DNA of 64,000 nt from Bilabrum cf. latius (GCA_965178125.1 OZ237751.1:682001-746000), one strand, 5' to 3'; counted from the stretch's first letter, positions 21,674 to 52,765 are shown. Translations and numbers: made by a program. Notes: a model not told the origin generated them from the letters alone.

Positions 21674-24600
21674 ATGTGGTCCCGATGCCTCGTGCTAGCT
21701 ACGACATTTGGCGCAATTCTCAGTGCCTCAGCCTAGCAAATCAGCGACAGAGCACTGTTGCTTCCCCTGACAACTAGAGAATCCGGTACAAAGGTTGAAC
21801 CTTTCAGAGTTCACGTTGGAGGCACGAAAGGGTAGCCATCGGACAGCTGCTATCGCTGGGAGGCTGCCGGGAAGGAACCAGATGCTATCCAAGTTACCCT
21901 TGACGATGCCAGCCGTGACGGATGCCCTCCAAATACCGCCGGTGCCGCGTTTGTTGTTGCCCAACCACTCGAGAGCGGTGCAGCCGCGCCCACTACCATC
22001 GAGGCTGTTTTGGAGGCGGTGTCTAGCGGGCCTGTAAACGGTGAGAAAGCCATTGCACGCACCTGACGCGATTTCGCACCATTGTTCTGCACGACTCAGC
22101 ACGATTCCGGCTGCATGTCTAGTAAGCGCTCCAATTTTGCAGGTCGCCGCTTAAGGCTCCGCTGCGACGTTCGCATCAACCGGATCCACAGCCTGGAGAT
22201 TTCGTCAGTCGCGGACAGCCTCGGCCGCACCCACCGGGAGCAGGTGTACGCGATAGGGAAAGATTCAAGGAACAACACGTTTTCTACTTTGGAGGGAATG
22301 AGGTTCCGCTGGGAATCGACGAACAAGCCCGCCGAGGCTGTGGATGATCCAAGCCTGAATGCGACCGCCCCTGGCGCCGCCGAAGTTCTCTCCGTCATCC
22401 GTCTGTCAGACAGCGACGTTATCGCCAGCAAGGCAAGGCAGGCCGTGGAGGCGCACGGTTTTCTCGCCGATAGGGTGGTTCTCTGCGGCAGCAGCACTGG
22501 CGTGGCCACGCTCGGATTGGCCATCCTCGAGCCAGACTACGTCGAGGACGTCAGCGAAGCCCAGCGAACGTTCCTTGTACGTGACCTGACGGAGCTCCAC
22601 CCCGTGTGGCGGATACGCACGGCCCCCGCAACGGATATCTCGTACCGGGTCCTCCTCGACATATACGAAGCGAGGAAGGTAGCCACGCTCCCGGACGAGC
22701 ACTTCCGGTTTACCGCCGCCGAAGGAGCAACCGCGCTGACGCTCGTGGACGCCCGCACCGATGCTGGCCGCGAGCTGGCCGAGGCCTCCCCTGTCCGGCT
22801 GCTGGACGACAGCAGCGGCACCGTGGTGGCTCGGGAGGTAGGGCGGGCCTCCATCGGCCTCGTCGACTTGAGACTGCCGGCGCACATCAACTCGATGGGG
22901 CGGGTGATCGTGGTGGAGCCCAGGAGGATGGAGCTGGTGCTGGATCCATTTGTTCCCTGGAGGAGCCCGAGGGGTGACCTGTGGGCACCGCTGTACGATG
23001 ACACGGTACCAGGGTTGACCGAGGACACAACACGACTCGCCTGTGACGTCAGCGGCGACCCGGACGCCGACTCGAACGGCGTCCCGTTGCTGGAGCTGAT
23101 CGCTGCACTGCGGGAGGGATTCTCTAGAGGAGACATGGAGTGGTCCACAGACGCGGAGGGGGTGCCCTTGCCTAGGGTGCTTCCCGACGGTACTCGGCCT
23201 GACTTTGACTACACGTGGGGCCGGCACAGCTGGGCGCAGCGAAGGCTTAGAGACGTAGGAAACTACGCGGAGAGGGGCTCTCGTTCCAACTCCATGGATC
23301 TTGTCGACCCGTCCGACCTCAATGGTGCGGGGGTCCATCTAACGCACGCAACCAGGGTGGAGCACCCTGGCACCTCCACGCCCTGCGACAAGGGCGTGCC
23401 CGTAGGGCTCGTGGAGCGGTGGGGCTTCCCCTGGACGCAGCGCAGCACGCGCCTGGAGCCCATCCGGCAGGGTGAGTCGCGACCTGTTCCCTGGAGACTG
23501 GTCGCAAATCGGGGGTACTGGATCACCCCGGAACTACACGAGCACCTGAAGAGTGCGGGGTCTGGCAGCGCCGGGAGGGAGGCAGCGAGAGGGCAGCAGT
23601 CCACGTTCACCGCCAGCGAGCCTCTGTATGCCGGCTACAATATCCTGTTTGGGTTGGAGATCTTGGGCCAGGGCAGCAACGCGGTGCTCAAGGTGGCCTC
23701 CGAGGCGGACACTGCTCTCGCCGCCCGCGGTTTCGATGTTGACCTGCTGGCGTATTGCAGGGAGGGCGGCGCCGTTGCCGAGGGCCAGGTGTAGAACGTC
23801 ACCGCGAGGAGGCGCGTGCTCGTGGTGGCGTGTGACGCCGATTCCCAAGCCGAGGTGAAGGCGAACCTCGGCGGAATCCGCAGCCGGCAGCAACCAGCAG
23901 TGGCGTGGCCCGCGGCTGACGGTGACTCTGATGAGGACAGGCAGGTCGATATCAGGTCGCCTGCAGTGCGAGCCATCGTGGCGCGCCAGCTGGCCATCTC
24001 TGATCCGCCGCAGGCCGTACGCATCCCATTCGTGCCGGGGATTGGCCAGCGGCTGCCGGTGGAGACCGAGGGCGGCAGCGGCTCCACCGTCGTGGCGGTT
24101 TGGAGGGCGCCAGTGGCCATGCACCCCGCGACCGGGAATGCCGAGGCATGCGCTGCCGCGGAGGCTGGGCAGCCGCTGGATTGGCAGGCTCAGTTCAATG
24201 AGACGAGGAGGCTGTATAGGCCGGAATCGCTGCTGCTCACGTCAAGCGATGACGCCGAGGACAGCAACGACGCCGCGGATCTTGCGCACGCAGTGCAGGC
24301 TGCCAGGAAAGTGCTCCAGCCCAGTGACGGCGCTGTGCTATCGTACGAGGCTGCCGGCACGGCCTATGTTGTTGCATCAGACAGTGCAGACCCATACAAT
24401 GCGGATGGGCAGCAGGTCACCGCAGCGCCTCCCGTCACGCCACGCATCGTGGCAGGCGAGATTTTGGAGGTGATGCAGGGCCAGGCAGTGTGGGTGGGCA
24501 CGCGGCTGCTGACAAAGGATGGCCTCGGTTTCTATGTCTGCGACGCCTCTTCTGTCTTGCTGGACTGGAAGATTAAGGGCGAGTCCAGCGTGGTATCCGT

Positions 24601-27600
24601 GGAGGCACCGAGGCAGGAGGCAGTGCTGCAGCAGCTCGTTGCATTTGCTGGGCCTCTGCCAGCGCAGGGGCAGCGGGAACGACTGATCCACGGCGCTGTG
24701 TGCGACTGGGCAGCACTGGTAGGCCGCAGGGCAGGACGTGCCACCCTCGAGGTCTCGTTCGACCTCAGCAGGGCTGGTCGGCCGGGATCGCCTGACGTGC
24801 GCACAGCCGTGCCAGTGCTCGTGTACCCTTCGCTCAAGGTCATGTTTGCCCCGGCGTGGGCACAGCTGGCTAGCTCGGCTTCTGCCGTTGGATTGGCTCT
24901 GCAGGCCTCCCGCGGCGCGTCCGGCGAGAGCATCTCCTTCATTGGCAGCGACCCTGACGCCGATCGGACGCTCGGTTCCGTGGCCGAAGGCATCGAGGGC
25001 TCGCTGGGTATGGAGTACGCGCGCACGTACACCGTTGGTGAGTTTCCCGACGTGCACGGTGTGTCGCATGGAGGCAAGTCCGGCACGCTGCGACTGCTTG
25101 GTTGCACCGTGCACGACCTCGCCCAGTCGTAGGAGGCCCAGGCTCTGGCCTCAACCCCCAGGGCGCTGAATGGGACGGCTCTGTACGCCGATGCAGCTGC
25201 GTGTCACGTTGCCTAGGGTGCCATCGCTCTGCCGCGATCTGGTTTCTCGCCCGGGTCTGGAGGGTCGGCGCTCGCTCCCGGCTCCACGGTGGTTGTGCTG
25301 CGCGACGGGCCTGGTTCCATGCTGGGTGGAGGAGGACGCATGTCTGTGGAAGTTGCCACGTGCGCCCGTGGTGAAGACGGCGAGTGCGACGCTACAGTGC
25401 AAGAAACCGGCGTGAAAGTCGAGGTGCTTGCGACCAGTGAACTGCATGGGATGGAATTAGACTTGGGTGGCGATTCCGGGCATGCCGATGCTTCTGCAAG
25501 CAGGCACAGGGCCGTCCGCGTGTCCTGCGAGGCTCCCACAAGCCCCAAGGAAGCAGCTGCGGATCGTCATGCGATTGTCTCGCTTCGCCTTTTCACCTCC
25601 ATGGAGGCCGCATCAGCCGACGCCGCTGACCCAGAGACGGAGGACCAGCTGATGGACGACGCACTGCGGGATGCCGCGGCTGACGTGGTGTTGCGGGTGC
25701 ACTGCCTTGCGGTACAGCCTCGCGGCGCTGATGCTGGGGAGCAGGTTGTGCCCTCCCTTCACCTTGCCACGCACCACGCAACCGATGCTTCGCTGGAAGC
25801 AATCGCCGCGCCTCGATCCAGAAGTGGCGAAGCGCAGGTAGTGTACGCGGCCCGCGGGCGCAAGCTGTTTGGCGTGCTTGACGGGTGGGTTCACGATCAT
25901 GGCAGCGACTACCGATGGAGCAGGCTGCTGAATACCACCTTTGCAGCTGAAGGCAGGCAAGCACCCGGAGGTGGACAGTCAGGCACCTCTCTTGACCTGG
26001 GCTCTGGGGATGCCACGGCGGTCGTGGCTGCAGCCGTTGCCTCGAGCGAGCGAGCACGAGACAAGCCATGGTTCGCAGTGGACTGCGGCGGCTCACTGCT
26101 GAGCGCTTAGGTGGCAGGAGCGCCCCAGGAGTCGCTGCTGTTCCAGTCATCACAGGGCTGCAACAGCAGCTTGGGCGAACTGTCTTTAACTGGGCGGTCG
26201 CAGTCTGGGCCAGCTCACCTGGCTCTGTCCCACGAAACCCTGACAAGCAGGGCGTATGGCCACGGCTGGGAGTCGAACGCTCTGTCATGGGGACGCGCTG
26301 AGCACCCAGAACACGTGTACGCCGACCACACTGGTGTGCTGCTTCGAGGGCCTCTCGCTCGGCGCGCGGTGGCGGGGTCAAGGCTGGCGTTCATTGCCGC
26401 GGAGAGGCTGGGCGAGGGGCGACTGCACGCTGGGTGGCCCATGGGAAAAGGCCTTGCGGAGCATGCGTCTGATCGCGCTGCCTCTGTGAGGATCAAGGTG
26501 GTAGAAGGTGCGAAGCTCCTGCCTGGGTGGGGCCTCAATGCCGACATGGGCGAGTTCGTGCGCGCAGGCAAACGAGGCGCGGCACTCACACAAGCGATCT
26601 ACAGCCGCGCGAAGAGCCACCGCGCCGAGACTCCCAGGGCCCTCATGTACGCAGGCAGCGACAACGTCATCCAGCTCTCGTGCAATGGCGGTACCTCTGA
26701 CGTTGAATATGATCTCGAGGCGGGGAAAACGCTCTCGAGCGGCGTGCGAGTAGCCAACCAGGGCGGGGCAGGGGGGGCTTCAGACGCGGATCCTGGGTCC
26801 AGTACTGCCGAGTCTCCCGTTGTGCTCTCGGTGGATGCCGGGCAGGACGGGTCAAGGGGTGCCGCCACCGCGTCTCTCATTGCGCTGGCAGAGGGTGACG
26901 TCACCGCGGTGTGTCACGATGCGGGTGAGCTCAGGGACGTGTGGGGGAGGAGGAGGGAGGACCACGAGACGCGCCTGTCAGTTGCCGTGAGAAGACTTGC
27001 AACCGTAAGCATCGCCTCCCGCCCTAGTCTACCGCTCAACGCGACCGCCCCGGTGTTTGTAGAGGCGCTTACAACAGAGGGGCAAAGGTTTGACGCGTCG
27101 CAGCACGCTGCCATGGGACTGACTGTGGAAGTGGTCGAGCACACGGGGCACGGACACGGTCTGGCCGTGCTTGAGGTGTAGAAAGACACCTCGCTCCCCA
27201 GCGGGAGGGGCATTTACTACTCCCTGCGAGCTCTGCGACCCGGCGTGGCCACTTTGCAGGCCACCGCAAGGGCCTGCCGGCCTAGCTCTCAAGCTGGCAG
27301 CGCAGCCCCCCAAGACTGCCCAGAGGTAAGGTCGTCCAGGATTGAGGTCTACGTGCACATGCCTCTCGGGATGGCACCGACTGCTGCCGGCATGGCACCT
27401 GGCTCTGCGTTTGCCCTTAGGGTCTCTGGGGGTCCACCCCAGCTGCGCTCAGCCAGGGCCCAAGTAGCCGGATTCAAGTTCCTCGCATCGTCTTCGGCGG
27501 AGTCCGTAGTGGCGGCGCAGCCATGGATGGGCCGCGCGGGCGGCGCCTCGGGGAGCAGCGGAAATTCTGCCGCCGTGTACGTCGCGGCCAGATCATCCGG

Positions 27601-30600
27601 CACCTCGGTCGTAACAGCAGAGTGCGTGGCCCGGTCGTCCCGCGCCCGTCGCCTCGAGCCGCAGCACGTGGTGGAGGCTGCCCTGGGATCCGGTGCCGTG
27701 TTCCCCAGGGACGCAGTGCTGGATTTCGCCGTGGCAAGCCTCCGCGTGGCTGTGCCTTCTGCCATATCGGTTGAGCTTTCCAGCGAGCGTTCGCCCGAGG
27801 GCACTTCGGTCCGAGCGTATGTCAGAGGGAGTGAGGGCCATTCGCCGCTGTCGCTGACCGGAGCTCCGTTTGCTGTCCGCTGGAAGGTGCACGGCACTGC
27901 GGAGGCGGGGAAGCTGCTACCCGCTGGGGCCGGTGGGGAGTGGGCGCCTTCTGCCCTGCTGGGAGGAGACTGCGCCAGGGCTAGCGAGCTCGGCCTTCGT
28001 TTGCCGGGCAAGTTTGCGGCTGCCGATGGGGGCGAGTCGCCGTGGCACATTCGGGATGCGTCCAGGGTCGTGTACCTGGACGCACCGGGACGTGCAATGG
28101 TGTCTGCGGAGCTCCGCCTCTTCAACTACACGGATGCCTGCGCCAGCATGCTGTATGCTGCCGGTGCGGCCCACAGCGGCTCGGCGTCGGTGAGCATATC
28201 TGCCGATGGCAGCACCCGAGGCACAGCGGGGATATCTGGCCTCGGGATGTCGGACCTGCGCACGTCCTCCACCGGCAGGTGCGGCAGCACGAGCAACGGC
28301 ACATGCGCCGTGTCGGCCCTGACTGCAACCGCTGTCGTGCAGGCAGTCCCGCGACTGTCTCTGCTTTACCCCGCGCTCCCGATTGCTGCCGAGGCCTGCC
28401 TTACGGCCGAGCGAAGCCGCGCAGACATGGGACCGCCCGCCGACAGCCCGGGATACTCGAGATTCGTTGCCGATGCGTTCGACGCCGGCTCTGCCTCGAG
28501 TGCTGCGAACAGGCGGTTCTCGCTTCCGCTTCACGCGAGTTCCTCCAGGCCGCTGGTGGTGCCGCCCACGGCTGGAATCAGGCTGCTGACCACCGTGCCG
28601 AGCGGGAATGAACAGGAACCCGTGTGCCACGTGCTCCCAGGAGACGGTGCCGGCCGACCAGCGCTAGAGCACGCGTCGGAGCCTGACAGGGATCTGTCAA
28701 GGCGCGTGCCCTGCAGCACCCTGGATCTGAAGGCCTCCGAAATGCCGGGCCGCAGCGTGCTCGTGATGGAGGACGAGGGGACGGACTAGCAAGCCACTGC
28801 GGTGTTCGAGGTGGCCCCGGTTGCCTCGATGGCCGTGTGCGGTCCTCCCAGCAGCATCACGTTCAGGGAGACCAACTACAGCCTCGCTCTCGTGGATGCC
28901 TCCGGCCGCGTCTTTTCGTCGGGCAGAGGGATCGATTGCCTCCCGACAGGCGCCAGCACAGCGAACGGGGAGCCAGACGACGAGTTTGTGAAGAACACCA
29001 TCCTGGCTGGGAACGCTGGTGCACAGGGCGCAGCTGACCCCAATCAGTTCCTCACGTGTCACCGGGTGCTTCTGAGCCGCGCCGCGTCGGCCGGGTCTGG
29101 TGCCAGCGCCGCTGCAGGCGCCGTGGATCAGGTACCCGCTTACGCTGACCTGTCAAGGGCGCAGGTGATCACAAGCGACCCTAAGGTTGCGTCCCTGCGG
29201 CAAAACAGAGACATTGTGGCCGTCAAATTCAGCGAGCACAACGCCAGGGTGCAGCTGACTGCTTGGGCGCCGCTGGCTCCCGTCATGCCTCTGCGCGCAA
29301 GCAGCAGCGCCGACGCAGGCGTGCTGGATGGCGCCATCGAACACAGTTGCACCAGCGAAGAGTGCCCAGAGCTGTCTGAGCGCATGGGTGACCCGCCGAG
29401 GCTTGGCTTCCCTCCAAGCATTCAGCTGCCAGAGCGAGAGGATGACCTGGACACCAGGAACATGTTCATTGAGGCCGTCAGGACATCGGACGCGGCAGCA
29501 GGTGAGGTGCGCCGGGCCGCCCTTGCGCTGCCCATGCCCGCTCTGGAGGACTGGACCGAGGTCTCTTCGCGGTCCATTCTCCTGACGCCCGGTGAGATCA
29601 CCATGACAGTGGGGTCCACCGCGCGCATCCGCGTGGACCCGGGCGCGCAGAGCTTCGGCGACCTACCGGCTGCATTCAGGGGCAGGGAACCATGGGCGGC
29701 CGATACGATCAGCGCGCCGCAAGGCGGCAACGTCCTAGCGTTTGAGCTTGCCAACACGACGCACTGCGACCTGCAGGAGGGCCAGGGGCCCGAGGTGCAG
29801 ATCATCGCAGCCAACCCCGGCGTCGCCGTGGTGGATTTCTTCGGGTGCACTGGGAGCGCAGACACTAGCTTAAGCCAGGTGAGGGTGACCGTGGTGGGCG
29901 ACTACAGCGTGCAGCTGTCGCTGCAGGACCAGCTGGCTGGCACTGTGATCACAGACGGCGACTTACCACTCAGTTCGCGTCTCGAAGGCAACGGCGCAGG
30001 GACTGTGGATCTCACTGACCAAGACGACCTGGATGTCATCGTGAATGCCGAGATGTCCGGCCATTCCGAGACGATCGCTGCGGACCGCAGCACTGCATTC
30101 AGCAGCATGTTTCCCTCGAGGGTGTACGTATTCTCAGCCTCCCTCCACGTCGATGGTGTTGAGCTGGAGCCAGTGGACGAGCAAGCGAGCCGTACCGTGG
30201 GTGAGGCAAAGAATGCTCGCAGCGTGGCATGGCACGGTCTCGATGTGCGGTGCACCGCCGATTTCGAGTACGCGCACGCTGTGGGGTCTAGCAAGGGCCA
30301 CCTGTACGACGGCGACATCCTGGCGTTTCCATGGGACGGAGTGGCTGTCTACGAGCCCGTGCGCGGGATGGGCTCTCTGAGGAGCGGCCAGCCAGCGGAT
30401 CCCACCGTCGTGCGATACAACTAGACGGACCTGGATCTCTTGGCGAGCCGGCGACTCGGCACGCATCCCGGGTGCATCGTGCTGGTGCAGCGGCCCGTCA
30501 CTCGCGCAAAGACCGCGGAGAGTGCTTCGCTCTCGCCGCCCCAAGATGTCTGGGGCCTCACCAAGCGGGCCGTGGGAGCTGCGCGCTCTGATGACGCTCT

Positions 30601-31984
30601 GCCTTCCTCGGTCGTGGTGCAAATGGCCGTTACCTTGCGGGATGTAGGGGCGGATTCCAGCCGCAAGGTGGTGGAGAGTCCTCGCAGCAAGGTGCCGTTC
30701 CAACCGGCCATGCGTCTGGTGGGTGCCGACTCCCCTTCGGAGGCTGACGTGGAGGCTGACGTGGTCGCGGAAGAGTTCTACGTAAGCGAGGGGTGGAGGC
30801 AGGACGTGGCACGGGCGCAATAGCCCATGGGCGGTGCCGCTGCTGCTCCCCAAACTTCCTCCCAGGCAGAGGGTGATTTGAACAGCACGAGCGCGGCTGG
30901 CCAGCCCAGCAATGGTGCCGGTGGAAGCATGCACCAGCGGCGCCAGTCCCGGTCACAGTAGCAGCGTGCTGTCGAGCTGCCTGAGACGTGGGCACAGGTT
31001 GGCGTGTTTCTGGCTGGTTCGTAGGGCGAGACCGTGCCGCTGTGCGGCGTGTCTGGCATGCCAGCACAGGGGTAGCCGTCCTGCATAGTGGTCCGTGCCA
31101 GCGGCTACGGCTGGGCTTCTCCTGGGGCTGGCTCGGCAGCCGCTGGCGGTGCACTGCTGCAGGGCGGGGATGCACTCGGGTACTCTCCCATCGCCGCGAA
31201 CTCATCCGCGCTGTCGCTGCAGCTGGGTCAGTCTGGAGGGCAGGGGCCGTGGGACGTGATCGAGATCGTGAGGGAGAGCAGCCTGGGTTCTGTGCGACGC
31301 TTCGTGAAGCAGCTCTCGAAGGTGTCAAGAGCTGCGGGCATGTACCCTGACGATTCCGTGCTGGGTGACAGGCCGGATCACGCGCGCGTGCAGCTCCAGA
31401 GGGCGGCCCAGGGGCAGCCCCTCGCGCGCGTTGTTCCCTCGGTCGTGGTCCAGGCTCGGGTGCGACAATCGCTCGCCACGAGGACGGACGTGGCGGAGGC
31501 GATTTGCGACCAGTTGCTGCGAGCATCTGCTTCCATGTCGGGTGAAACGCTCGGGGCGACCCAGCGCGAGGTCGAGTTCTGCGAGGCGAGGCAGAACGGT
31601 CGCAACGCGGGCGATGACCAGCGGCTACCCGCGCTTCTGCTGGGCATCGAGTCGGTCCGGGTGAGCGAGGGGCCCGGCGGGCGAGCGCTTGAGCAAGTGC
31701 TCGACCGCGGCGTGGTGCGCGTGGCGCTCGACGTGGCAGTTGAGCCGCTGCAGGTGACTAGCTGGGTTAGCGTGTTCGTGTTCACCGTGCTTGGCGTGTC
31801 GGTCGCGATCGCGGTCATTGCGGGGGCTTCAGCGTACATGCAAGGCGATGAGGGCGTGCCTGCCAGGCGTGGACGGCGCGGTTCCCGCGACGGAGCCGGG
31901 ATGCAGCAGCCGGCCAACAGGCAGGGCGGCGCGGCACGCAGAGGCCGGAATCCCGGCAGGCGAGTGCCTGGGAGGCGCAACTGA
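21674..31984 (+). CDS. NUP210: Nuclear pore membrane glycoprotein gp210/Nup210-like protein (about 3400 aa), one intron
   Basis: Signal peptide MWSRCLVLATTFGAILSASA, then ALLLPL, SCYRWE, LRCDVRINRIHSLEI and GKDSRNNTFSTLEGMRFRW, matching the gp210 N-terminal pattern (VLLP, CYRW, LRCD, DxEGNTFSTL.GL.F.W). Single C-terminal TM (WVSVFVFTVLGVSVAIAVIAG) and short basic tail. 13 in-frame TAGs; ends TGA. Confidence 0.85.
22041..22142 (+). other. Spliceosomal intron (102 nt) in the gp210 gene
   Basis: GTGAG...TTTTGCAG; removes the only in-frame TGA (about 22064) and joins PVN-G-RRLRLRCD. Confidence 0.75.
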
Positions 31985-33225: not shown

Positions 33226-33272
<47 letters not shown>

Positions 33273-33485: not shown

Positions 33486-33586
33486 CTGATTTCGGCTCCG
33501 AGCACAGTGACGTGGGCAGATCACCACCGCGCGTGCTGTATCACGATAGTACTGAAAGGTGTTGTGCAGCGCGCACAAAGCGTATA

Positions 33587-34354
33587 ATGAATCGTGCAAG
33601 GTTGTTTTTGCAAAGATCTTATACGAAATCGCTGGTCCACTCGTTCACACAGCCGCGAAACATCCGATATGTGAACGTGCCTCCGGTGGACATGGTGTAG
33701 AGGAGCATCCCGCAAGTCGTCAATGAGATTGAAGCTTTGGAAAAAGAATCACCAAGGAAAAAGTGGCTGGTCGAGGAGCTCCGTAGCGATCATGCAGGGG
33801 AAACGGGAGCCGTGTACATCTACAAGGGGGCGCTTGCGGCACTAACCATGCGATAGCATGCACCTGCAACAGCTCAGTTTGTTGCATAGCATATGCGTAC
33901 CGAAGAATAGCATTTAAAGTTTATGTGTGAAGTGCTGCCGCCCCAGCAGCGCAGTGTGTTCATTCCGGTGTGGAGAGTGGCTGGGTGGGTCCTCGGATGG
34001 CTCCCCACAGTCATGGGCGGCGAGCGATGGCTCTTCGTCACGGTAGATGCGGTTGAAACTTTCGTTGATGAGCATTATTACGACTAGATTGCCCAGCTGC
34101 AAACCGACGATTGGGCCGAAGGCGGCTAGGACGCAACGACATAGACCGCCTTCGGTGCCAAGTGCGTAGTCCCAAATCTGCTGGCTCTTCTAAAGCATTG
34201 TAGGGAGGATGAAATTCATCATCGAGATGACGCACGAAATCGGCACATCGGCCCGGACGAAGAGGAGGAAGGTAGGAGCTTGGCGAAGAGGAGTTGGGCA
34301 GCTATTATCGATTCGGGCTCGCGAGCAGCCGTTCGCCTGGCTCGCTGGGGGTGA
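33587..34354 (+). CDS. COQ7: COQ7-family demethoxyubiquinone hydroxylase (di-iron carboxylate protein), 255 aa
   Basis: LRSDHAGETGAVYIYKGA, TEE*HL, IPVWRVAGWVLG, TVDAVETFVDEHYYD*I, CREDEIHHRD; Arg/Ser/Leu-rich presequence-like N-terminus. Seven TAGs (33698, 33854, 33887, 33908, 34085, 34127, 34142); ends TGA. The catalytic region is absent from the standard-code ORF track. Confidence 0.9.
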
Positions 34355-34519
34355 ATATACTGTAATATGGACAATATTCGCGATCTGGGGGAATTTCTGC
34401 AGTGTAGATTGATGAGTACACTCGCGATCGAAGCCTGCCCATTTTGAATTCCGGAGCCGATTATTCTGCCTCATGTCCATGCCACATTCGAACGATAATT
34501 ACAATTTCTCTCTAGCCGA

Positions 34520-37500
34520 ATGGAGCTAAATTCATCATTTTTCATCTCGAAGTTGCGGGAGACCGGTCCGGTACGTCAAACTAATTCCCTGGCACAACCG
34601 CGAACTCAAATCAATTCAAAGGCTTGTCGCAAATTTGTTATTCCTTGGTCAATCTAACGCAGTCTATAGATTTGCTTGATCAGCTATCGGCTTACATACA
34701 AGAAATAGAGAGGCTTTCTCCCTCGGATTTGGATAAGACAAAGCGAGGCGAATGCTACGCAGCGCTGAAGCTCAGGGTTGCATGCGCATCGAGCTTGGGC
34801 CACAAGCGAGAGGCTTTGGCCTCTTGCATGAAGGCACTAAATTTGATAAGGTCGTTACCATTTATGCCGATACTGGAGCATGCGATGCTCTTGCGGCGAT
34901 GCGCATCGCTGTCGCTCGAATGCGATCTGGTGCAGCAAGCTCAAGCGATCCTACTGCGGCATGCAACGCTGACCAGGGACTTGCCCTCCAGCGGCGGAGG
35001 TTCCGCAGAACGAGAAGGCGCGCGCTCTCTGTATCGTCTAGTGTCATTGGCACGAGCTAAGACCAGGTTGAGTGAAGAACACCCAGCAGCAGCCAGTGCC
35101 AGTGCCAGTGCCAGTGCCACCTCTATGCTCAAAGCAGCCTTTACGGCCGATTTCAACTGCCACAGGGCAGAAGAGACAAGTAGGGAGCTCACGGTGTCCT
35201 AGACTATCCCTATGGTAGTGATGCACGTGGGTGATTGTCTGGATTAGCGTTCGAACTCCCCGCATACCCAGCCCCACGAGACTGGTTTGGATACCAGTGG
35301 TCGAGGCGCAAGCCATGCCGCCGGCCCTGGTGACTCCCATGTCCCTAGCTCGGCTGCAATGGCCATCGATCTGACGCAAGGATACGGAGATTCCAGCGAA
35401 GAGAGCTCTGCAGTGGACCTGCTGCACGGCGCAGGCAGTGCACGGTGCGATGATCTTGAATAGAGTTCGGGCGGAACCATCGGCTCCGCGTAGACGGGCG
35501 CAGCTCACGCCGCATCGACCCTTAAGAGACCTCGGGTGCAGATTTGGGCCATTTCAGACCCTGCGAGCATTATTGATGGCGTTCTATCCGCCCTGGAAGT
35601 GTGTATTGATCTGCTGTAGAAGCAGTCCGAAAGCAGGCGCTCTCTCGGCGCCCATGGAGGGAGTGTGTCTGAGGACGTCTCGGTCGGAAGCAGCAGACTT
35701 TCGTCACTGCTCTAGCAAGTGTAGATAGAGCTGATAGTTGAAAAGCCATCTAAACCGCTGACTCGTGCCCGTAGTCTCCTGCAAGATGGACACGGGGTCC
35801 GAAAGAAGCCTTCACCCTAGGCCGATTCCGTAGAGAATGCACCGGATGAATCCCGCTTGACGGCCCCAGCAAAGGCTCAGAAAAGCATGAGTGATGATGA
35901 CGATGATGTTGATATTAGCAAACAAGGTAGCGCTTCCCATGAACCTCAAGGTAGTCCAGCACCGGCAGCAGTTGCAACTGCTGCCAGTGGTGTAAGTGGA
36001 CCTGCGGTTGTGAGGCTCCGCCAGTCTCTGCGATACCCCGTGCTTTTGTAGAAGTTCAAGGCGGACAAACTGTACAAGTACCTACAGTGGATCTGTCCGG
36101 ACGGGGCTGTTGGCACGGCAGGGCAAGCCAGTGGTGACGCGCCTCATATATCCTCCCAGGCTGGCGCAGACCATACGGATCCAGCCGACCCTTCACAACC
36201 CAACATGCGTGATGATGGCTCGGGCGATTCCGGGCATGCAGAGGCGCCAGTAGATAAGGATCGCCCTGTGAGGCGGTACGAAGACGAGTACCCGATGGTT
36301 CATTTGCCTCACAGCATCGAGGACGAAGGCAAATCGCTGGAGCACGCCTTGTGGGAGCTATCGTCGTCCAGCAGCACGGGAAAAGGTACCGCTTCGCACG
36401 CTGTCAATCTAATGGATTTACTGCGAGTAGTGTCGTCGGCAAAGTGGTTCATTGCAAGGCAGCAGTCTTCCTACCCAGCGCTGTCGCTCCTGTGCTGGAG
36501 GACCAAGCTGCCTGGTTTCTACGGCTCACCAACACTCACCCCAGCGTGCATTAGTAGCCCCTCAGCGGATGCGATGCTACTCCAGGCCGTGGATATGTTG
36601 CAGTCAGCTGGGCAGGGACTCAGTATGAACGGGCAAGCCCTCACTTCCATTGGCCGGCAGGCCATGCTAGCGTCTTCGCAGGTGGTGCGGTCTGCTTGTG
36701 AGGGTGCTGGATCTGCTCTGCGGGAGGCTTTAGGCAGCAAGTCAATAGCCTCGGTTGCGCGAGACATTCACGTGAAAATGCTCGCACGAATTCGCGAAGA
36801 TGCGACGAAGCTGGCCAGTGCAGGAACGAGCGCTGCAACCACCCTCCTACCTGCATTCTCGCACCCCCAAAGCACTGCGCGTGGTAGCTAGGCATGGCCC
36901 AACGAATCGTTTGCTCCGTTGTCAACAACCACAATCGTTGGGTCGCTGACAAGCGTGTCAGATCTTCTCAACGCCATCGATGAAAGCGCACTGCCGGGCG
37001 TACTCCGAGAGGTGGCACCGACCCGAAGCCTAAGGGAAGCAGCGCGTGGCATCGAACAAGCCGCCTTTGTTTGGATGCTTCGTGCGTCCTCGTGGAGCAT
37101 TGCAACGGGATGCTCTACTGTGAAGCTCGCTGCATCGAGGCAAAGAGCCGGGAACGAGCGGGCCTGTCGTCTTCCAGCCCACGTGGCGTGGTGCGGTCTA
37201 GTTGCTACGGCAAATGTGCTGGTGTTGAGGTGTATGGCTCGTTTGTAGCAGAACAGGGCTGATGGGCAGCCGGATGGGCCGACAGCCTCAGGTCTTGACC
37301 TGGCGGCAGCAGCACAATACCTGCCCTTGCCCACGCAGGTGCGGTCTTGGCTCGTGCGGGCAGGTCTGGTGTACAGGCCAATTCTGCACTCTAGGCTGCA
37401 GATCAAGTCACGGCCAGACGAGGTGCTAGCAGGCGGTTCAAGTTCCAAGAGCGTTCCAATGGCTGTGCTTTCTTCGTTCCATCAAACGGACGCGCATGAT

Positions 37501-40500
37501 AGCATTGCCACTACGTGGAACGAGATCGGCGAGTCCAGGAAGCTGTGGCAAGTTGCCTGCGAATCTACGGCAGCCGCGCAGGACAGTGGAACGTCTCGGC
37601 ACCGCGATGTGCTTCGGGCTCGAAGGTTCGCAGCGCGTGCCGGAAAGCGAATGTTGCGAGCCATGAAGCGAGGGTCTTACGCTCTTACTGCATCCAGTAG
37701 AGACATTAAGTCGGCAACCAGCGGACATCGTATTTGTTGGGGTCTTCTTGCCGTGGCAGACGCAGCATTGGTTGTGTCAGGCACTGGAGATGCGGTGATT
37801 GATATTGATTCTGACTCATCAAGCGACAGCATAGCTTAGCGCAGGTCTTCGGCGGCAGTGGCTGCCAAGCGCCCAAGGCTGGACGGAATGCACACCGTGG
37901 GTACGCCGGATGCGCTGCAGCCACGGGATCCCAGACCCACTCTCACTGTTGACCAGCCGTCTCTCGCGAGTTAGGGAGCCGGCAAACTGGCTGCTGTTAA
38001 CCTTTTGGTTGGACTGCCGCCTATTTTGTCGATGGGAGTGGAGCTGGAGCCGTGGTTACGACCCTTGCACCTGGACTCGTTCTTCAACCAGAACCCCGGA
38101 GTATCTGCACGTGCAAGGGCACCGGTCCACGCCCACGCCCAACAGCAGCTAGACTATCTACCGCTAGCTACTGGCGACGAAGGTTCATCGCCGCATTCTG
38201 GCAGTGTTCGAACTAGGCTAGCATCTCTGTGGCCTCTCATGGATGGTCCCTCCCTGCTACAGCATCTTGATATTGCATCAGACGATGAGAGCGCTGCCCC
38301 GGACTCAGCCGCTTCTTCCAACGCCCCAGAGGCACTGGACGTGGGAAAAGAGCGAGCTCGTCTACAGACAGCTGATCGTGACGTGCAGGCGTGGGAGGTG
38401 CGCCGAGAGCACCTGGTCCCAGTGGTCGACCTGGCTACACCGGACAAAGAAGGTGGCTGCCACGTGCCAATCCCGTCTTCCACGGGCCCTTACAAGAGAC
38501 AGATGAGCAGCTTGGCAACGGCAACAAGTACCATGGCTACACACAGTGCCGCGGCTACCTCTGGCACACCGTTCAAGAGCCCAGGTCATCAGCTGGGTAG
38601 CAAGAGGGCCCGTGTTCGGTTCGAGCAGGCGACGCCGATGTCCACACCTGGTCAGGGAGCTCGTCGCTCCATGTTGCGTACAAGGTGTCACCCCATACAC
38701 GTTGACGGGACCACCGGGAGCTCTGAGGCTCGACTCACGCGGTGGACATGGCCCGAGCTCCAGCACGACATGCAAGACCTGCTGCGGGTCTCTTCGCCGC
38801 CACGATCTGCAGCAGACTCTCTGCCAGGAACAGCATTGGGCGGCATTCCATACGCTGTCTCCCCGTCCGATGCGTTATCAGTGGCATTACAGGCGCTCAT
38901 ATTGAGATGTGAGTGGAGAGCAGCTGCATAGCTTGCCAGTGACGCATTCGAGGCTATCCGTGAAACCATCCGTCACTTAGAATGCAACTCGGCTGCCGTG
39001 CCCGATGCCTTGCATGGGTGCGTGAAGCTGGGCTGCAGCGATTCACAGGCGAACGCGGCATTAATGGCAGCCGCTGGCAGCCTTCACCGAAGCTGCATCT
39101 CCGTGTTGATCGCATCGTGTGGGTAGCTCAGCCCAGCCGAGATCGTGGAAACTGGCGCGGCCCACACGCTCTCTGTGGTGGCCCGTGATAGCATGCATGC
39201 TGCTTTAGAGCCGATCGATCCGACAGTTGGAGTGCAATCCGACTTCAGTAGTAGCATGTCATCATTGTATACGCTCCGGTCAACACTTTCAGATGTAGCG
39301 ATGAAGTTCAAGCCTTTGGACAGCGCGAATTCGGCTGCACGGACTGCAGAATCGCCATCAGAGGCGTTAGCTGGCCTAGGATACTCTCTTGCATTGGCCA
39401 GGTGTTTGTCCTCTGCCGGGTGCTTTGGGCACGCATGGGGAGTCGTGCACGACTTGTTCTCTGCGTGCAACCGACCTATCCGTCATACCATTGACTCAAG
39501 CCTTTAGCCGCTCCACGCCAAAGAGCCGATGAGCAGTAGATCGAGGTATTGCCAGTCAGTCTCGTCTCTGTGCCTCAGGGAGCTGCTGCGTGCAGTATCT
39601 GGGCAGGTTCGGGTATCGTGCGGGCTTGGAGACCCGCTTGTCGCTGGTCGGTGCAGGCCATGGCGTGCCAGGTGGCAAAGCCGCGGCACTGATCTTGGCT
39701 ATGAATTCAGCGTTCCATAGCGAATCTCAGCCCGCAGCGACCGATACCATCCCTCCGAGATTCCCCTCGCGCAGCTCAACTAGCTGTAGCATGCCATTAT
39801 CTGGAACATCGCGTGCATGGGAACAGCGCAGCCGAAGGAAGACAAGCATGGTACCCCGCGCAAATCTCCACCAGGAAGCAGCAAGTAGGCGAGCACCCCG
39901 TCCTCGGCGAAATCCGGGTCCTCCTCCGGTAGTGCGGAAAAGGCAACGAAGAGGGTGGTCCGCCGATCCAAGAGGTAGTCCCTCTCCAAAATGGGATCCA
40001 GCGCAAGCCCTTCGGCCGTGCTGAAGCAGCACACAATTTTTTAGCCAGAGTTCGGATCGTGCGATTGCGAACTTCCGGGAGCACAGGCTGCGGACCGGTT
40101 AGGGGCCGCGTGGGCCTCGCTGCTGTGTGCCAAAGAGCCAATGCAACCAGACAGTTCACAATAGCTGAGGCCCATGCAGGGCGATATGCCCCTGTACTTA
40201 GGCCCCAAATGCTCTCCCTCAGACGTGCAAGAGGTGGCGATTCGCAGCATGGCTCGGCAGGCATACAGGGCATCAGGTGTTTCGACAAGCGCTCTTTGTG
40301 CAGAACGTGAGCTTCGGCCGGACTACGTGCACGATGCTTCGCTGCTTCGATTTGCATGGCTTGGGTCGTTTCTTGGTCACAGATCGACGGTGAAGCGTCG
40401 GGGCAATAGTGTCGTAGCAGGTACTGCAGGCGCGCCCGGACCTGCGCGCCCGGCTGGCCAGCCACTCATCACAGCGTCCCTGTTCGGGGCTTCGTCAAGC

Positions 40501-43500
40501 AGGACAGGATAGCAAGGGGGATTGACTGGTGCTAAACCCCGCCATGTTCATAGTGCAGACAGAGGGCCAGCTATGGACATGTATGTAGACAGCGATTCTG
40601 ATACCGAAGACGAAGACGGGCGGGCGCTTGGCTCGTTCCCAAAAGGCGTCACAATCTAGACTAACAGCGGCTCAAGGCAAGAGATACGTTCGTGGCCCAC
40701 TGCCGCCACTACCGTCGGCCGCACGTGCGTGTCTAGAGAGCATGCTGTGATGCAGCTTTGGCAGGATGGACAGCAACGGTCTGGGTACCAGTCGCTCTGC
40801 CTGCATGCCTTGGTCATTGTGCGGCTCGCAATTCAAGGTTTTGCGGTGCAATCGAATGATTCAGGATAGGAAACACGAGCTGCTGTGTCCAACGCGTTTT
40901 GTTTGCCGGCACTGTGGTAGCTTTGCAAGTAGGCACCGGCGCCACCGAGCAGCATGTGGCACTCGTCTGCAACTCCAACGCTTCTCCTAGCATGGTGTAG
41001 CAATCCAAGGGTTGTACGGGCGCTTGAGAGCATTGTACCTGAGAGAATTTGGGGAGGAGGGGAGCCGTTTGTGCCTCCAGATGATCAGGAGAAGGCAATT
41101 CTGGCTGCAGTACACTTTGGTAGAGGCCAGCATGTGCCAACGGCATCTCTGCCGCACATTGCAGCTGGCTGTATTGCCCGTGTTATGTCGACAGCTGTCA
41201 CAGTAGCAGGAGACATGGGAGATTTCACTCTTTCTGGTACGTTTGAGTGGAGCAGCGTAGCTGCAGAGCAGAGCGCCTGGGTTGGCCGTGACGACGATCC
41301 TCGCACTGCCTACGATTGGAGCCTGTGCGAGTCTCCCAATTCTCCGTGGATGACCTTGCCTCCGCTGAGGCTGCTTGCCGCCGCTACCGGGCTTTCGGTC
41401 GAAAACGAAGATGCTGGTAGCACTGATTCATCGCACCACGACGAAGAAGTGGAAGCGGCGTACAATCCATTGGTGGACGAGTACGATGGGCAGGCTACGG
41501 AAGGCAGTGGAGACAGTCGCAGCGAAGTTGGCGATAGACCTAGTGGTCAATAGGACGACGATGATGATAACGATGGCGAAGATGAAGTGGGTACATTTTT
41601 TGATTTTCTGCACATTCAGGACCCTAGAAGGGACTCGAGCTAGGACAGGTAGAGCGATGCCTCAGTACCGCGTGCTGGCTTCGTAGCTCGGCTAGGCAGG
41701 CGAGAATGCGCCCGGCTCGCTCACATCTTGGCACGGATCGCGCGTAGCAACGAGTCACAGATAGGTACGCTGCACGATGTACAGCTTGGTAATAGCGCCG
41801 CTGGAGAACCGGCTGTATCCGTGCCAAGCTTTCACTTGGTCGACTGGGAGCAGCCGTACAATCCCACCGGCTGGAGCGGGATCATCAGTGCTGCGTGCCT
41901 TCCTTGGGTCGCCTCGCCGTCGATTGATGCTGTCCTGTCAAAGATGCGAGCCCAACGCAGGAAAGAATCCGATGCTGGTAGGCCAAGCAACGATAGCGCA
42001 GCAGCGTTAGGTGCTGGGCCGGCCTCTGGCGCAGGCAGTAGCCCGTTCTCGTCAGTTGCACGTTTGCATGGACCGGCCGTGTGTTCACCGGAGCGTGCCC
42101 CTGAGCTAGTGTCGCAGGAGAGCCGATTGGCTCGCTCGCAGATGGTCAGACTGTCCTTGGTATCTGGCACAAGCGAACTGCCCCAGATGCTTGCGTCATC
42201 TCGAGTATCTTTCGAGCTAGGTAATGCGTCCCGGGTGCTATCAACACTTGCCATGTTCCGCCCTCCGGCCTCGAATGAGACCTCTGCGTTGGGCGTCACT
42301 GCTGCTGATGCTGCGCTAGCGTGGTCGTCCAAGTGGTGGGATAAGCAACAGCAATCAGTGAGCTCTGGGTCGCCGGAATCGAAAGCTGAAGCCCTACAGC
42401 TTGAAGCGCTCTGCATGCTGTGTGCACCGAGTGCAACTTTGCGCATGATGATGACCAGTAAAGGCGCAGTAAACGTTGCTTCGGTTCTGGGCGATGCATC
42501 TGATATGGGTGCTATGTTCTAGCACCTATAGATTCCTGCCATTGTTGGGATGAACACGGGAGTTATAAAAGTCGCAATTTTGTCAGGATCGCCAAGTCCT
42601 ACTCAAAAGCTTGTGATTGCATTCAAGTACCGTGCTTCTCGTAGCTCTGCAACGTCCTCAGGTGTAATGTAGGCGATCGATTGGGCAGGATCTGGCTGCG
42701 CAAGTTACCTATCTCTAGCTCCGCGGATGCATCTGCACGTGCAGTGCCAGCAACTAGACTGTGTCGCCGGTGCTAGTGCTGCATTCAGCCAGTGTCCGGG
42801 TACTGTGAACCATAAACATCTCAGTCTGCTTCTTACAGGTTACCGGAGGGAAGTTGGTGCCGCTGACTGCGTGGGCCAGTCGTCTTGGGTGCGGAAGTGC
42901 GTGGGAGGCGTCGACTGTGGATTCCGAGATGTCGGTTAGTACGCTCAATTGCATTCAGCCGTGCGTGCCGTGGCAAGCTCAACTGAATTCAGCAACTCCT
43001 GGGACGTCAACGATTCTGTGTAGTCAATGGTGCAGCTGCCTGCCGAAGACCGTGCGCTTATGTCGATGTCTCGGACAAAGTATCAAGACGCAGCCAGACA
43101 GGCTCGCGCTCTACTGACAGACCTAAGCCGGATCATGCAGGGCATTGCAAGGCACCCTTTGAATGTTGGCCTCTGGATTCGCTCCCTCCGTGTCTCTGAT
43201 GCGCTTGCATCGGATGTAGCGTCCCGCAACCCCTGCAGGCGACTAATCGGCATGGCCTCTGACGAGCTAGATGGCCTGGATTCCGCCACTGCTAGCCAGA
43301 TGGAGTGGAAACAACGCCAGTAGATTACTGTTGGAGTTGCGACCATGCCTCCCCTGTGGTTCGGGCTGGTTCACACTGAAAAATTCACTGCAATGCATGC
43401 CCACGGTCAGTCAGTTGTCCTAACAATTCTTGCTGCGGCTGGACTGGAAGTACCGCACCTGCGCTGCGATCCTTCGGGTCTGAATGAGAACGGCTTTTTT

Positions 43501-46260: not shown

Positions 46261-46288
46261 CACATTGGAACACTTTTGACGTTTAGAC

Positions 46289-52200: not shown

Positions 52201-52765
52201 GCACCTGCGCCTCAATGGAAGCGGAGACCATCGCTGGGGACGTCGGCAGCTGTGCCACTGCTTGCAACCGGCTCACAGGCCTTCGAAATGGACTCGTCAT
52301 CGCAACCACGCCGCCCTCGCAGTCCTTCACGATTGGAGAACCGGACAAATAATGGTTTGATGACGAAAGCCTTGGTTTATGCAGAACAGAGGGCCGCGTG
52401 CTCGACGACGAGGCCGGCCTGTGGGCTAGAGCTCCAAGCTTTTCGACTTCGTCTGCGGCAAGCGGCCGACGTGACGGATTTATAGTGTTCCTTGCAGCTA
52501 TTTCAACGCTATTGTCTCGAATTGATGGTGCCTAGAGCATGATAGACCCAGAGGCATGGCTCGCTGTATTCTGGCTGCCTCCCTCCAAGCCGCGGCGGCC
52601 GCCTGGGTCTTCGAGTTCGCCAACTTGCAGGCTAATTTCAGCCACACCACGGCTTGCAGGGCGATCATTAGATCCCGATGTTCTACTCCATCCGTGACGC
52701 TCGACCATGAGCCGCATCTAGGCTGTGCGTTTGCCAACTCTCGTGGCATATTCGGCAGTTGCCAT
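46289..52765 (-). CDS. Large mostly low-complexity hypothetical protein (about 2160 aa)
   Basis: The minus-strand track fragments from 52532-52717 down to 46340-46618 share one frame, separated only by TAG. ATG 52765 lies just inside an upstream in-frame TAA; ends TGA at 46289-46291. Ser/Arg/Gly/Asp-rich with a His9 tract at 49439-49465. Confidence 0.7.

What the first reader, a model, noticed from the sequence alone, without database searches (positions are those of the whole stretch)
33587..34354. Hidden COQ7 gene identifies the amino acid as glutamine
Seen: all di-iron ligand motifs are intact although seven TAGs split the frame. TAG 34085-34087 sits in FVDEHYYD*I. Established: COQ7/Clk-1 proteins have a strongly conserved HY(N/x)xQ(I/L) motif. 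Inference: UAG=Gln rather than Leu, Trp, Tyr or Glu, and a pseudogene reading is implausible.
Basis: partly seen in the sequence, partly recalled or inferred. Interest (0 to 1): 0.85.

Follow-up and report, generated by a model that had tools for sequence, protein, structure and literature searches.

The report
COQ7 gene read through TAG=glutamine
An intact ubiquinone-synthesis gene (COQ7) interrupted by seven TAG "stop" codons belongs to an unidentified microbial eukaryote that reads TAG as an amino acid, most likely glutamine, while still stopping at TGA and TAA.

Summary
ORF 33587-34354 (+) has seven in-frame TAGs, ends in TGA, scores 119 bits on Pfam COQ7 (cutoff 23.5) and keeps all six di-iron ligands. 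TAG 34085-34087 lies in a column that is Q in 114 of 120 homologues.

TAG is sense across the window. Seventeen long ORFs carry 167 in-frame TAGs and no TAA or TGA; 13 end in TGA and 3 in TAA.

COQ7 alone does not fix the residue. On the Pfam model His ties with Gln (126.3 vs 126.1 bits), and over five families Gln leads Lys by only 1.5 bits. Leu, Trp, Tyr and Gly are 14-23 bits worse.

The decision comes from relatives that share the code:
- A 92%-identical fragment reads Q at COQ7 TAG 108.
- An 80%-identical fragment reads Q at a TAG of the neighbouring giant ORF.
- Partner-residue likelihoods put Q first, Leu 11-18 nats behind.

No tRNA, eRF1 or peptide evidence was available.

Verdict: TAG=Gln with TAA/TGA stops, a known kind of code in an apparently undescribed non-ciliate lineage. 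Confidence about 0.9.

The parts
33587..34354 (+). COQ7 (5-demethoxyubiquinone hydroxylase) ORF, 255 codons, intronless. The N-terminal ~60 residues lie outside the Pfam domain and may be a mitochondrial presequence (inferred). The start is uncertain: in-frame ATGs also occur at 33398 and 33461.
   Evidence: PF03232, 119.4 bits; human COQ7 7ssp, E=3.3e-10.
33698..33700 (+). In-frame TAG, residue 38 (N-terminal extension, not alignable).
   Evidence: 76 of 120 homologues have a gap; insert state.
33854..33856 (+). In-frame TAG, residue 90 (loop; 79 of 120 homologues have a gap).
33887..33889 (+). In-frame TAG, residue 101 (variable column: R 64, E 17, A 13, Q 9, S 9 of 120).
33908..33910 (+). 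In-frame TAG, residue 108, inside the first E-x-x-H ligand motif (E106-E-TAG-H109). A 92%-identical relative (P0143) reads Q here. The distant relative L001 reads L. The family column is G 69, Q 15, S 15 of 120.
34085..34087 (+). In-frame TAG, residue 167, in HYYD-TAG-I. Column is Q in 114 of 120 and H in 6 of 120 homologues. Human COQ7 has Q and L001 has CAA.
34127..34129 (+). In-frame TAG, residue 181 (lineage-specific insertion; 119 of 120 homologues have a gap).
34142..34144 (+). In-frame TAG, residue 186 (lineage-specific insertion; 115 of 120 homologues have a gap).
34352..34354 (+). TGA terminator, directly after the conserved C-terminus RLARWG. L001's COQ7 ends at the same residue, also with TGA.
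33800..34222 (+). Span holding the six di-iron ligand codons: E72 (33800), E106 (33902), H109 (33911), E157 (34055), E209 (34211), H212 (34220). All are intact.
   Evidence: each column is 119-120 of 120 conserved and the query matches.
39124..39126 (+). In-frame TAG, residue 1501 of the neighbouring 3878-codon ORF (34624-46260). An 80%-identical relative fragment (P0142) reads Q here; the eight residues before it and four after it are identical.
34624..46260 (+). Giant ORF of unknown family with 42 in-frame TAGs, ending in TGA. This is context showing that TAG must be decoded efficiently.
46289..52765 (-). 2158-codon ORF with 24 in-frame TAGs, ending in TGA (context).
22082..31984 (+). NUP210-like ORF with 11 in-frame TAGs. 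It is the upstream neighbour of COQ7, as in L001.

Best explanation
The window is nuclear DNA of a compact, apparently intron-poor, GC-rich (about 58%) eukaryote. In its cytosolic translation UAG is an ordinary sense codon for glutamine, while UGA (mostly) and UAA still terminate.

The COQ7 gene is a working gene for the mitochondrial di-iron 5-demethoxyubiquinone hydroxylase. Its seven TAGs are read as Gln, including the conserved Gln of the HYxxQ motif.

Shown here: TAG is sense and TAA/TGA are not; the COQ7 family features are intact; Gln is the best-supported residue.

Inferred, not shown: decoding by a dedicated tRNA-Gln with anticodon CUA, one mutation away from tRNA-Gln(CUG), together with an eRF1 that no longer recognises UAG efficiently. 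This is the mechanism discussed for other UAG-only codes (PMC11687900, Introduction read).
For: 1) TAG is sense. There are 167 in-frame TAGs in 17 long ORFs and no in-frame TAA or TGA. Of the 16 ORFs with an end in the window, 13 stop at TGA and 3 at TAA. One ORF carries 42 TAGs, so per-site decoding must be efficient.

2) COQ7 is intact. Pfam gives 119.4 bits with X and 126.1 bits with Q. All six ligands and 46 of 50 conserved columns are kept.

3) TAG 167 lies in a column that is Q in 114 of 120 homologues.

4) Relatives that share the code read Q where the window has TAG. P0143 (92% identity over COQ7 residues 103-164) has Q at TAG 108. P0142 (80% identity over giant-ORF residues 1449-1579) has Q at TAG 1501. 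That is 2 of 2 TAG sites spanned by relatives of at least 80% identity.

5) Partner residues of TAG were scored at 23 alignable sites (window vs syntenic L001, plus the two paralogous kinases).
- BLOSUM62 conditional likelihood: Q 0, S -3.9, E -4.1, L -11.4 nats.
- Frequencies calibrated on the same alignments: Q 0, N -5.6, E -8.3, S -10.5, H -13.5, L -18.1 nats.

6) Pfam bits summed over five families with TAGs inside domains: Q 464.5, K 463.0, E 461.8, H 461.6, S 459.2, R 458.6, G 450.3, Y 449.7, W 445.1, L 441.4.

7) The TAGs are real. Contigs from a second study match with no differing letter.
Against: - Only three TAG sites give strong residue evidence: one conserved column and two close-relative sites.
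- On Pfam models alone Q leads K by 1.5 bits, and in COQ7 H ties with Q.
- My own entropy-weighted HMM gave Q only 0.6 nats over E.
- Among the 23 partner sites Q is the partner in 4 (17%), against 42% Q-Q pairing for ordinary Gln codons.
- The distant relative L001 has Leu opposite two COQ7 TAGs, and the window has CTA opposite one L001 TAG.
- The best-conserved paralogue site pairs TAG with AGG, Arg.
- Fragments P0143 and P0142 end where the window has TAC (Tyr165) and GAG (Glu1580). If those ends are TAGs rather than contig ends, they are non-Gln partners.
- No tRNA was found in the window or in L001 and no genome is held, so the decoding machinery is unseen.
- No RNA or peptide data were available.
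Confidence: 0.9

Rival explanations
1. TAG is a sense codon but encodes another polar residue (Lys, Glu, His, Asn or Ser) rather than Gln.
For: The Pfam five-family sums place K, E and H within 1.5-2.9 bits of Q. H ties with Q on COQ7, and S is best on NOPCHAP1. UAG=Ser and UAG=Glu codes exist in other eukaryotes (PMC11687900, Discussion passages read).
Against: Two of two close-relative sites read Q. The 114-of-120 Q column never holds K, E, N or S. Partner likelihoods put these residues 3.9-13.5 nats behind Q.
Confidence: 0.05
2. TAG encodes leucine, as in the rhizarian exLh and some phyllopharyngean ciliates.
For: L001 has Leu (CTT) opposite COQ7 TAGs 108 and 181, and the window has Leu (CTA) opposite one L001 TAG. 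UAG=Leu with UAA kept as a stop is a documented code (PMC5304391, abstract).
Against: Leu is the worst or near-worst residue on Pfam models, 23.1 bits below Q over five families. It is 11.4 and 18.1 nats behind Q in the partner tests. Leu is absent from the Q/H column. A 92%-identical relative has Q, not L, at TAG 108.
Confidence: 0.01
3. TAG has a dual meaning: Gln inside genes but still a terminator in some contexts, or decoding is near-cognate readthrough by tRNA-Gln(CUG) without a dedicated suppressor tRNA. This overlaps with the best explanation on the residue; the confidence given is for dual use specifically.
For: The base after in-frame TAG is biased: G follows 40 of 164 (24%), against 40% of all codon first bases and 38% after CAG (chi-square p=1e-4 and 9e-6). 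TAGs are half as frequent in the last tenth of ORFs, 8 against 15-21 per decile. Depletion before true stops is described for ambiguous codes (PMC11687900, Introduction).
Against: None of the 16 ORF ends needs TAG as a stop. The COQ7 C-terminus is conserved up to its TGA. Forty-two TAGs in one ORF demand near-complete decoding. The decile effect is small, and the base bias may be a dinucleotide effect.
Confidence: 0.1
4. The DNA TAGs are converted to CAG in the mRNA by U-to-C editing, and the genetic code is standard.
For: This would also put Gln at every site, so the residue evidence cannot tell it apart from reassignment.
Against: U-to-C editing would equally rescue TAA (to CAA) and TGA (to CGA), yet neither ever occurs in frame across 19,339 codons. 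Editing of nuclear mRNAs on that scale is, to my knowledge (recalled), undescribed. Contigs of runs X5 and X6, guessed by the tool to be possibly RNA, carry unchanged TAGs, but their RNA status is not established.
Confidence: 0.02
5. COQ7 is a pseudogene, or the TAGs are sequencing or assembly errors.
For: Seven stops under the standard code.
Against: Only TAG interrupts the frame. All ligands, 46 of 50 conserved columns and the full profile length are kept. The same TAG-only pattern occurs in all long ORFs and in the syntenic relative L001. The sequence is identical in a second study's run.
Confidence: 0.005

Closest known systems
UAG=Gln with UAA and UGA kept as stops, as in Iotanema spirale (Fornicata) (PMC5304391, abstract read). 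A phage paper calls this variation 'genetic code 15' (PMC9523058, abstract in the listing).
   Same: Only UAG is reassigned, the residue is Gln, and UAA and UGA still terminate.
   Different: The organism differs. This one has a GC-rich, gene-dense genome, an aerobic-type COQ7 and hybrid histidine kinases. UGA is the main stop (13 of 16), whereas that abstract calls UAA the primary stop of I. spirale.
Ciliates with UAG=Gln only: Hartmannula sinica, Trochilia petrani, Protocruzia tuzeti (PMC11687900; abstract, Introduction and Discussion passages read).
   Same: UAG-only reassignment to Gln, with widespread sense use of UAG.
   Different: Those are ciliates that prefer UAA as the stop. Nothing here looks ciliate: multi-kilobase ORFs on a contig of at least 64 kb, and the COQ7 tree places the gene among stramenopile-named sequences.
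UAG=Leu codes: rhizarian exLh and TARA phyllopharyngean ciliates (PMC5304391 and PMC11687900, abstracts).
   Same: The meanings of UAG and UAA are decoupled.
   Different: Leu is disfavoured here by every test.
UAR=Gln code of many ciliates, Hexamita, Ulvophyceae, Streblomastix and Amoeboaphelidium (PMC11687900, Introduction and Discussion passages).
   Same: A stop-to-Gln reassignment, presumably through mutated tRNA-Gln.
   Different: Here TAA is never in frame (0 of 19,339 codons) and terminates 3 of 16 ORFs.
Human COQ7, the mitochondrial 5-demethoxyubiquinone hydroxylase (PDB 7ssp).
   Same: Same Pfam family and the same E...ExxH...E...ExxH ligand set. Human Q aligns with TAG 167.
   Different: phmmer reports one aligned stretch (query 65-175, E=3.3e-10). 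The window protein has a lineage-specific insertion around residues 175-190 that holds two TAGs.

Membership tests
COQ7/Clk-1 di-iron hydroxylase (Pfam PF03232) | Profile score above the curated threshold over the whole domain | tested here: met
   119.4 bits with TAG=X and 126.1 bits with TAG=Q, against a cutoff of 23.5; profile positions 3-169 of 169.
COQ7/Clk-1 di-iron hydroxylase (Pfam PF03232) | Six carboxylate/histidine iron ligands (E, ExxH, E, ExxH). The motif definition is recalled; the columns were identified as invariant in the alignment. | tested here: met
   E72, E106, H109, E157, E209 and H212 all match columns conserved in 119-120 of 120 homologues.
COQ7/Clk-1 di-iron hydroxylase (Pfam PF03232) | Hydroxylation of demethoxyubiquinone, and mitochondrial location | not testable with these tools
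   There is only an N-terminal extension of about 60 residues outside the domain. No targeting predictor or assay was available.
UAG=Gln nuclear code with UAA/UGA stops | UAG frequent in frame in conserved and long genes | tested here: met
   167 TAGs in 17 ORFs. In the 16 credible ORFs, 164 of 19,339 codons (0.85%), which would be 18% of Gln codons.
UAG=Gln nuclear code with UAA/UGA stops | UAA and UGA never in frame and used as terminators | tested here: met
   No in-frame TAA or TGA; 13 TGA and 3 TAA stops.
UAG=Gln nuclear code with UAA/UGA stops | UAG aligns with Gln in conserved columns and in close relatives | tested here: met
   Q in 114 of 120 at COQ7 residue 167. Q in relatives at COQ7 TAG 108 and giant-ORF TAG 1501. 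Q ranks first in the partner tests. The number of strong sites is small, and the Pfam-only margin over K is 1.5 bits.
UAG=Gln nuclear code with UAA/UGA stops | Cognate tRNA-Gln with anticodon CUA | not testable with these tools
   No tRNA in the window or in L001, and no genome is held.
UAG=Gln nuclear code with UAA/UGA stops | eRF1 altered in stop-codon recognition | not testable with these tools
   eRF1 is not in the window.
UAG=Leu nuclear code (exLh type) | UAG aligns with Leu or hydrophobic columns | tested here: not met
   Leu is 23.1 bits below Q over five Pfam families and 11.4 or 18.1 nats below Q in the partner tests.
Ambiguous stop/sense codes (all three stops dual, Condylostoma/karyorelict type) | UAA and UGA also used as sense codons | tested here: not met
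   No in-frame TAA or TGA in 19,339 codons.

The most novel reading that the evidence does not exclude
The window, the syntenic metagenome contig L001 (45-57% protein identity) and the database fragments at 80-96% identity sample an undescribed clade of GC-rich, intron-poor, non-ciliate eukaryotes found in environmental data. Their COQ7 groups with stramenopile-named sequences. In this reading the clade separated the meaning of UAG (Gln) from UAA (stop) independently of fornicates and ciliates. The depletion of G after sense TAGs and of TAGs near ORF ends would then mark residual competition with the release factor.
Probability: 0.4. Interest if true: 0.75.

Novelty: new member of a known kind. 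Interest (0 to 1): 0.6.

Why it matters
Nuclear codes in which UAG and UAA have different meanings are rare. The papers read here list a rhizarian, a fornicate, a green alga and a few ciliates (PMC5304391; PMC11687900). They matter because they show that the two codons can be separated mechanistically.

This window adds a case in a different kind of genome, with environmental relatives at several distances. That would allow the spread of TAG codons after reassignment to be dated and traced.

There is also a practical point. Standard gene callers shatter every gene of this lineage: its proteins appear in public databases only as 46-131-residue fragments. The lineage is therefore largely hidden from homology-based surveys until it is re-annotated with TAG=Q.

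Tried and rejected
- tRNA and RNA-family scans: no tRNA in the window or in L001, and no Rfam match in the window.
- Polymorphism test: runs X1, X5 and X6 laid on 33300-53299 showed no differing letters, so there were no TAG/CAG variants to read.
- Expression: no RNA holder is listed. X5 and X6 are only guessed to be RNA.
- UxuA against solved structures: the alignable TAG falls in a variable column (A/R/A).
- FG-GAP internal repeats: the TAG column is variable.
- Neighbour-residue profile of TAG: uninformative. P, L, M, R, T and Q lie within 1.1 nats, and calibration recovered the true residue in 0-65% of trials.
- My own HMM of the 120 homologues: Q is first, but only 0.6 nats ahead of E after entropy weighting.
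- Full HMMER search with the NOPCHAP1-like ORF: only two fragments of a close relative were found, neither spanning a TAG.
- 'Shorter' search on giant-ORF residues 1501-3000: only 2 hits, because only the 8000 candidates sharing most words were scored.
- Scans for relatives in genome contigs and viral contigs: nothing.
- Cluster look-ups: no taxon names beyond Cafeteria for one cluster.
- COQ7 tree: only the quick tree finished, and placement inside the eukaryote group is unresolved.
- Literature: four searches found no paper on a stramenopile or labyrinthulomycete nuclear UAG reassignment. Supplements were not consulted.

Full report
**Observation**

The interval 33587-34354 (+) translates to 255 codons. 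Seven in-frame TAGs lie at residues 38, 90, 101, 108, 167, 181 and 186. There is no in-frame TAA or TGA, and the terminator is TGA. The other five frames of the interval each contain 3-8 TAA+TGA.

With TAG masked as X the product scores 119.4 bits on Pfam COQ7 (cutoff 23.5) across profile positions 3-169 of 169. It also matches human COQ7 (7ssp, E=3.3e-10), whose Q aligns with TAG 167.

I aligned the 120 best of 2168 database homologues. Fifty columns are at least 90% conserved:
- The query is identical in 46.
- It is conservatively different in 3.
- The fiftieth is TAG 167, in a column that is Q in 114 and H in 6 of 120.

The six iron-ligand columns (E72, E106, H109, E157, E209, H212) are intact.

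**TAG is sense throughout the window**

With TAG read through, the window resolves into 17 long ORFs of up to 3878 codons. Together they hold 167 in-frame TAGs and no in-frame TAA or TGA. Of the 16 ORFs that end inside the window, 13 stop at TGA and 3 at TAA.

One of the 17 (32245-33462, minus strand) has no Pfam hit and no CAG codon, so I doubt it is a gene. Without it there are 164 TAGs in 19,339 codons.

Pfam identifies the following:
- an FG-GAP protein
- an amino-acid transporter
- an ankyrin protein
- a NOPCHAP1-like protein
- a NUP210-like protein
- a UxuA-like dehydratase
- two tandem hybrid histidine kinases

A gene with 42 TAGs cannot be expressed unless each TAG is decoded efficiently. 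This is a reassignment, not occasional readthrough.

Contigs of a run from a second study are letter-for-letter identical over the parts they cover, including four of the seven COQ7 TAGs. Assembly error is therefore excluded.

**Relatives share the code**

A metagenome contig (L001, 5177 bases) has the same gene order: the NUP210-like C-terminus, then COQ7, then the N-terminus of the giant ORF. Its ORFs are likewise interrupted only by TAG (6, 1 and 4 TAGs), and both of its complete ORF ends are TGA. Protein identity to the window is 274 of 618, 128 of 235 and 128 of 451 aligned positions.

Closer relatives appear in the protein databases only as short fragments that standard gene calling has cut at TAGs:
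- P0141: 96% identity; it stops exactly at the window's TAG 2900 of the giant ORF.
- P0140: 85% identity; it stops at the window's TAG 180 of the NOPCHAP1-like ORF.
- P0139, P0142 and P0143.

**Which amino acid?**

Only TAG 167 is in a conserved column. TAGs 101 and 108 are in variable columns, and the other four fall where most homologues have gaps.

Scoring COQ7 on the real Pfam model with each candidate residue at all seven TAGs gives H 126.3, Q 126.1, K 123.1, E 123.0, R 121.8, S 120.4, Y 117.9, G 117.8, W 115.6 and L 115.4 bits. So Leu, Trp, Tyr and Gly are excluded, but Gln is not separated from His and only weakly from Lys and Glu.

I repeated this on four more proteins with TAGs inside or near domain hits:
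- NOPCHAP1: S 37.0, Q 35.4
- UxuA: E 120.7, Q 119.8
- FG-GAP: W 121.1, Q 118.5
- Aa_trans: R 66.8, Q 64.7

Summed over all five families the scores are Q 464.5, K 463.0, E 461.8, H 461.6, S 459.2, R 458.6, G 450.3, Y 449.7, W 445.1 and L 441.4. Q is first, by 1.5 bits.

Two other lines of evidence decide the matter.

First, the close relatives. P0143 is 92% identical over COQ7 residues 103-164 and reads Q at TAG 108. P0142 is 80% identical over giant-ORF residues 1449-1579 and reads Q at TAG 1501, with the eight residues before it and four after it identical. These are the only two TAG sites that any relative of at least 80% identity spans, and both are Q.

Second, partner residues. I tallied them at the 23 TAG sites that lie in alignable context, using window against L001 for three genes plus the two paralogous kinases. 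Q is the commonest partner together with V (4 each). Then come E, N, G, L, S and D (2 each) and F, C and R (1 each).
- With BLOSUM62 conditional probabilities, Q is best: S -3.9, E -4.1, L -11.4 nats.
- With partner frequencies measured on the same alignments, Q is best: N -5.6, E -8.3, S -10.5, H -13.5, L -18.1 nats.

**Evidence on the other side**

- L001 has Leu opposite COQ7 TAGs 108 and 181, and the window has CTA opposite one L001 TAG.
- The best-conserved paralogue site pairs TAG with AGG.
- TAG pairs with Q less often (17%) than ordinary Gln codons pair with Q (42%). This fits TAGs sitting at weakly constrained positions, but it is not proof.
- The fragments P0143 and P0142 end where the window has TAC and GAG, which may or may not be TAGs in those relatives.

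**Mechanism**

Shown here: UAG is sense, UAA and UGA are stops, and Gln is the best-supported residue.

Inferred: a tRNA-Gln(CUA) and an eRF1 that spares UAG. A CUA anticodon should read UAG but not UAA, which would explain why only UAG changed (argument from PMC11687900, Introduction).

Neither component could be examined. There is no tRNA in the window or in L001, no Rfam hit and no genome.

U-to-C editing would give the same protein, but it does not explain why TAA and TGA are never in frame.

**What the organism is**

The COQ7 of the window and of L001 form a pair (SH-aLRT 99). The pair sits inside a 47-sequence group that holds all the named eukaryote sequences: Nannochloropsis, Cylindrotheca, Proboscia, Cafeteria and MMETSP transcripts. 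That group is separated from a 78-sequence, largely bacterial group (quick tree only; names).

Placement inside the group is unresolved, so a stramenopile affinity is a lead and not a result.

Several features argue against a ciliate: about 58% GC, multi-kilobase uninterrupted ORFs, short spacers and hybrid histidine kinases.

**Comparison with known codes**

UAG-only reassignments are documented as follows:
- to Leu in a rhizarian and in TARA phyllopharyngean ciliates
- to Gln in Iotanema, Protocruzia, Hartmannula and Trochilia
- to Ser in Scotinosphaera
- to Glu in one ciliate

(PMC5304391, abstract; PMC11687900, abstract, Introduction and Discussion passages.)

The code here is the Gln variant. 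It differs in preferring UGA as the stop, whereas UAA is the primary or preferred stop in I. spirale and in the five UAG-reassigned phyllopharyngean ciliates (same abstracts).

Four literature searches found no report of this code in stramenopiles or labyrinthulomycetes. Supplements were closed, and subscription journals are not covered.

**Verdict**

- The pseudogene reading is excluded.
- TAG=Gln is supported at about 0.9. This rests mainly on evidence from outside COQ7's own conserved column.
- It is a new member of a known kind of variant code.
- It is of real interest to people who study code evolution, chiefly because of the lineage and its environmental relatives.

Noticed in passing
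window, all 164 in-frame TAGs of 16 ORFs: The base after a sense TAG is biased: C 55, A 45, G 40, T 24. G is 24% here, against 40% of all codon first bases and 38% after CAG (chi-square p=1e-4 and 9e-6). TAGs are also about half as frequent in the last tenth of ORFs (8 against 15-21 per decile). This may be residual release-factor competition or a dinucleotide effect.
   Followed up: partly
L001:1-5177: A metagenome contig is syntenic with window 30000-36100 (NUP210-like end, COQ7, start of the giant ORF). It uses TAG in frame 11 times but shares no TAG position with the window in the alignments. TAG sites therefore turn over completely at 45-57% protein identity, whereas relatives at 85-96% identity share at least two.
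   Followed up: partly
window 54809-59596 (-) and 59821-63996 (-): These are two tandem paralogous hybrid histidine kinases (HisKA/HATPase_c/receiver). The 14 TAGs of the first and 7 of the second all lie outside the best-scoring Pfam stretches reported for each protein, in the variable linker and N-terminal parts.
   Followed up: partly
window 33340-33480: A roughly 62-base unit occurs twice in tandem just upstream of COQ7. Each copy carries an in-frame ATG (33398, 33461), so the COQ7 start is ambiguous. Run X1 has short separate contigs here, consistent with a repeat.
   Followed up: partly
window 32000-33586: The spacer between the NUP210-like gene and COQ7 is about 1.6 kb here and about 0.4 kb in L001. 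The ORFs in it (32245-33462 minus, 32306-33355 plus) are unconvincing: the minus-strand one has no Pfam hit and no CAG codon, and the plus-strand one was not scanned..
   Followed up: no
window 35088-35120 and 41554-41588: Short stretches inside the giant ORF have very high summed contig depth in the runs (bin depth about 420 and contig depth about 490, against 17), with many loose ends. These look like dispersed low-complexity coding repeats, acidic runs at the second site.
   Followed up: no
window 53016-54299 (-): This is a UxuA-type mannonate dehydratase (118 bits). Its best solved-structure matches are three chains deposited as mannonate dehydratase (source organisms not shown by the tool). 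It carries an alanine/serine-rich insertion of roughly 60 residues and a C-terminal tail. It may be a horizontally acquired sugar-acid gene.
   Followed up: no
protein database fragments P0139-P0143: Proteins of this lineage's relatives appear in public collections only as 46-131-residue pieces that begin at the first Met after a TAG and end at the next TAG. Standard-code gene calling hides the lineage from homology searches.
   Followed up: yes
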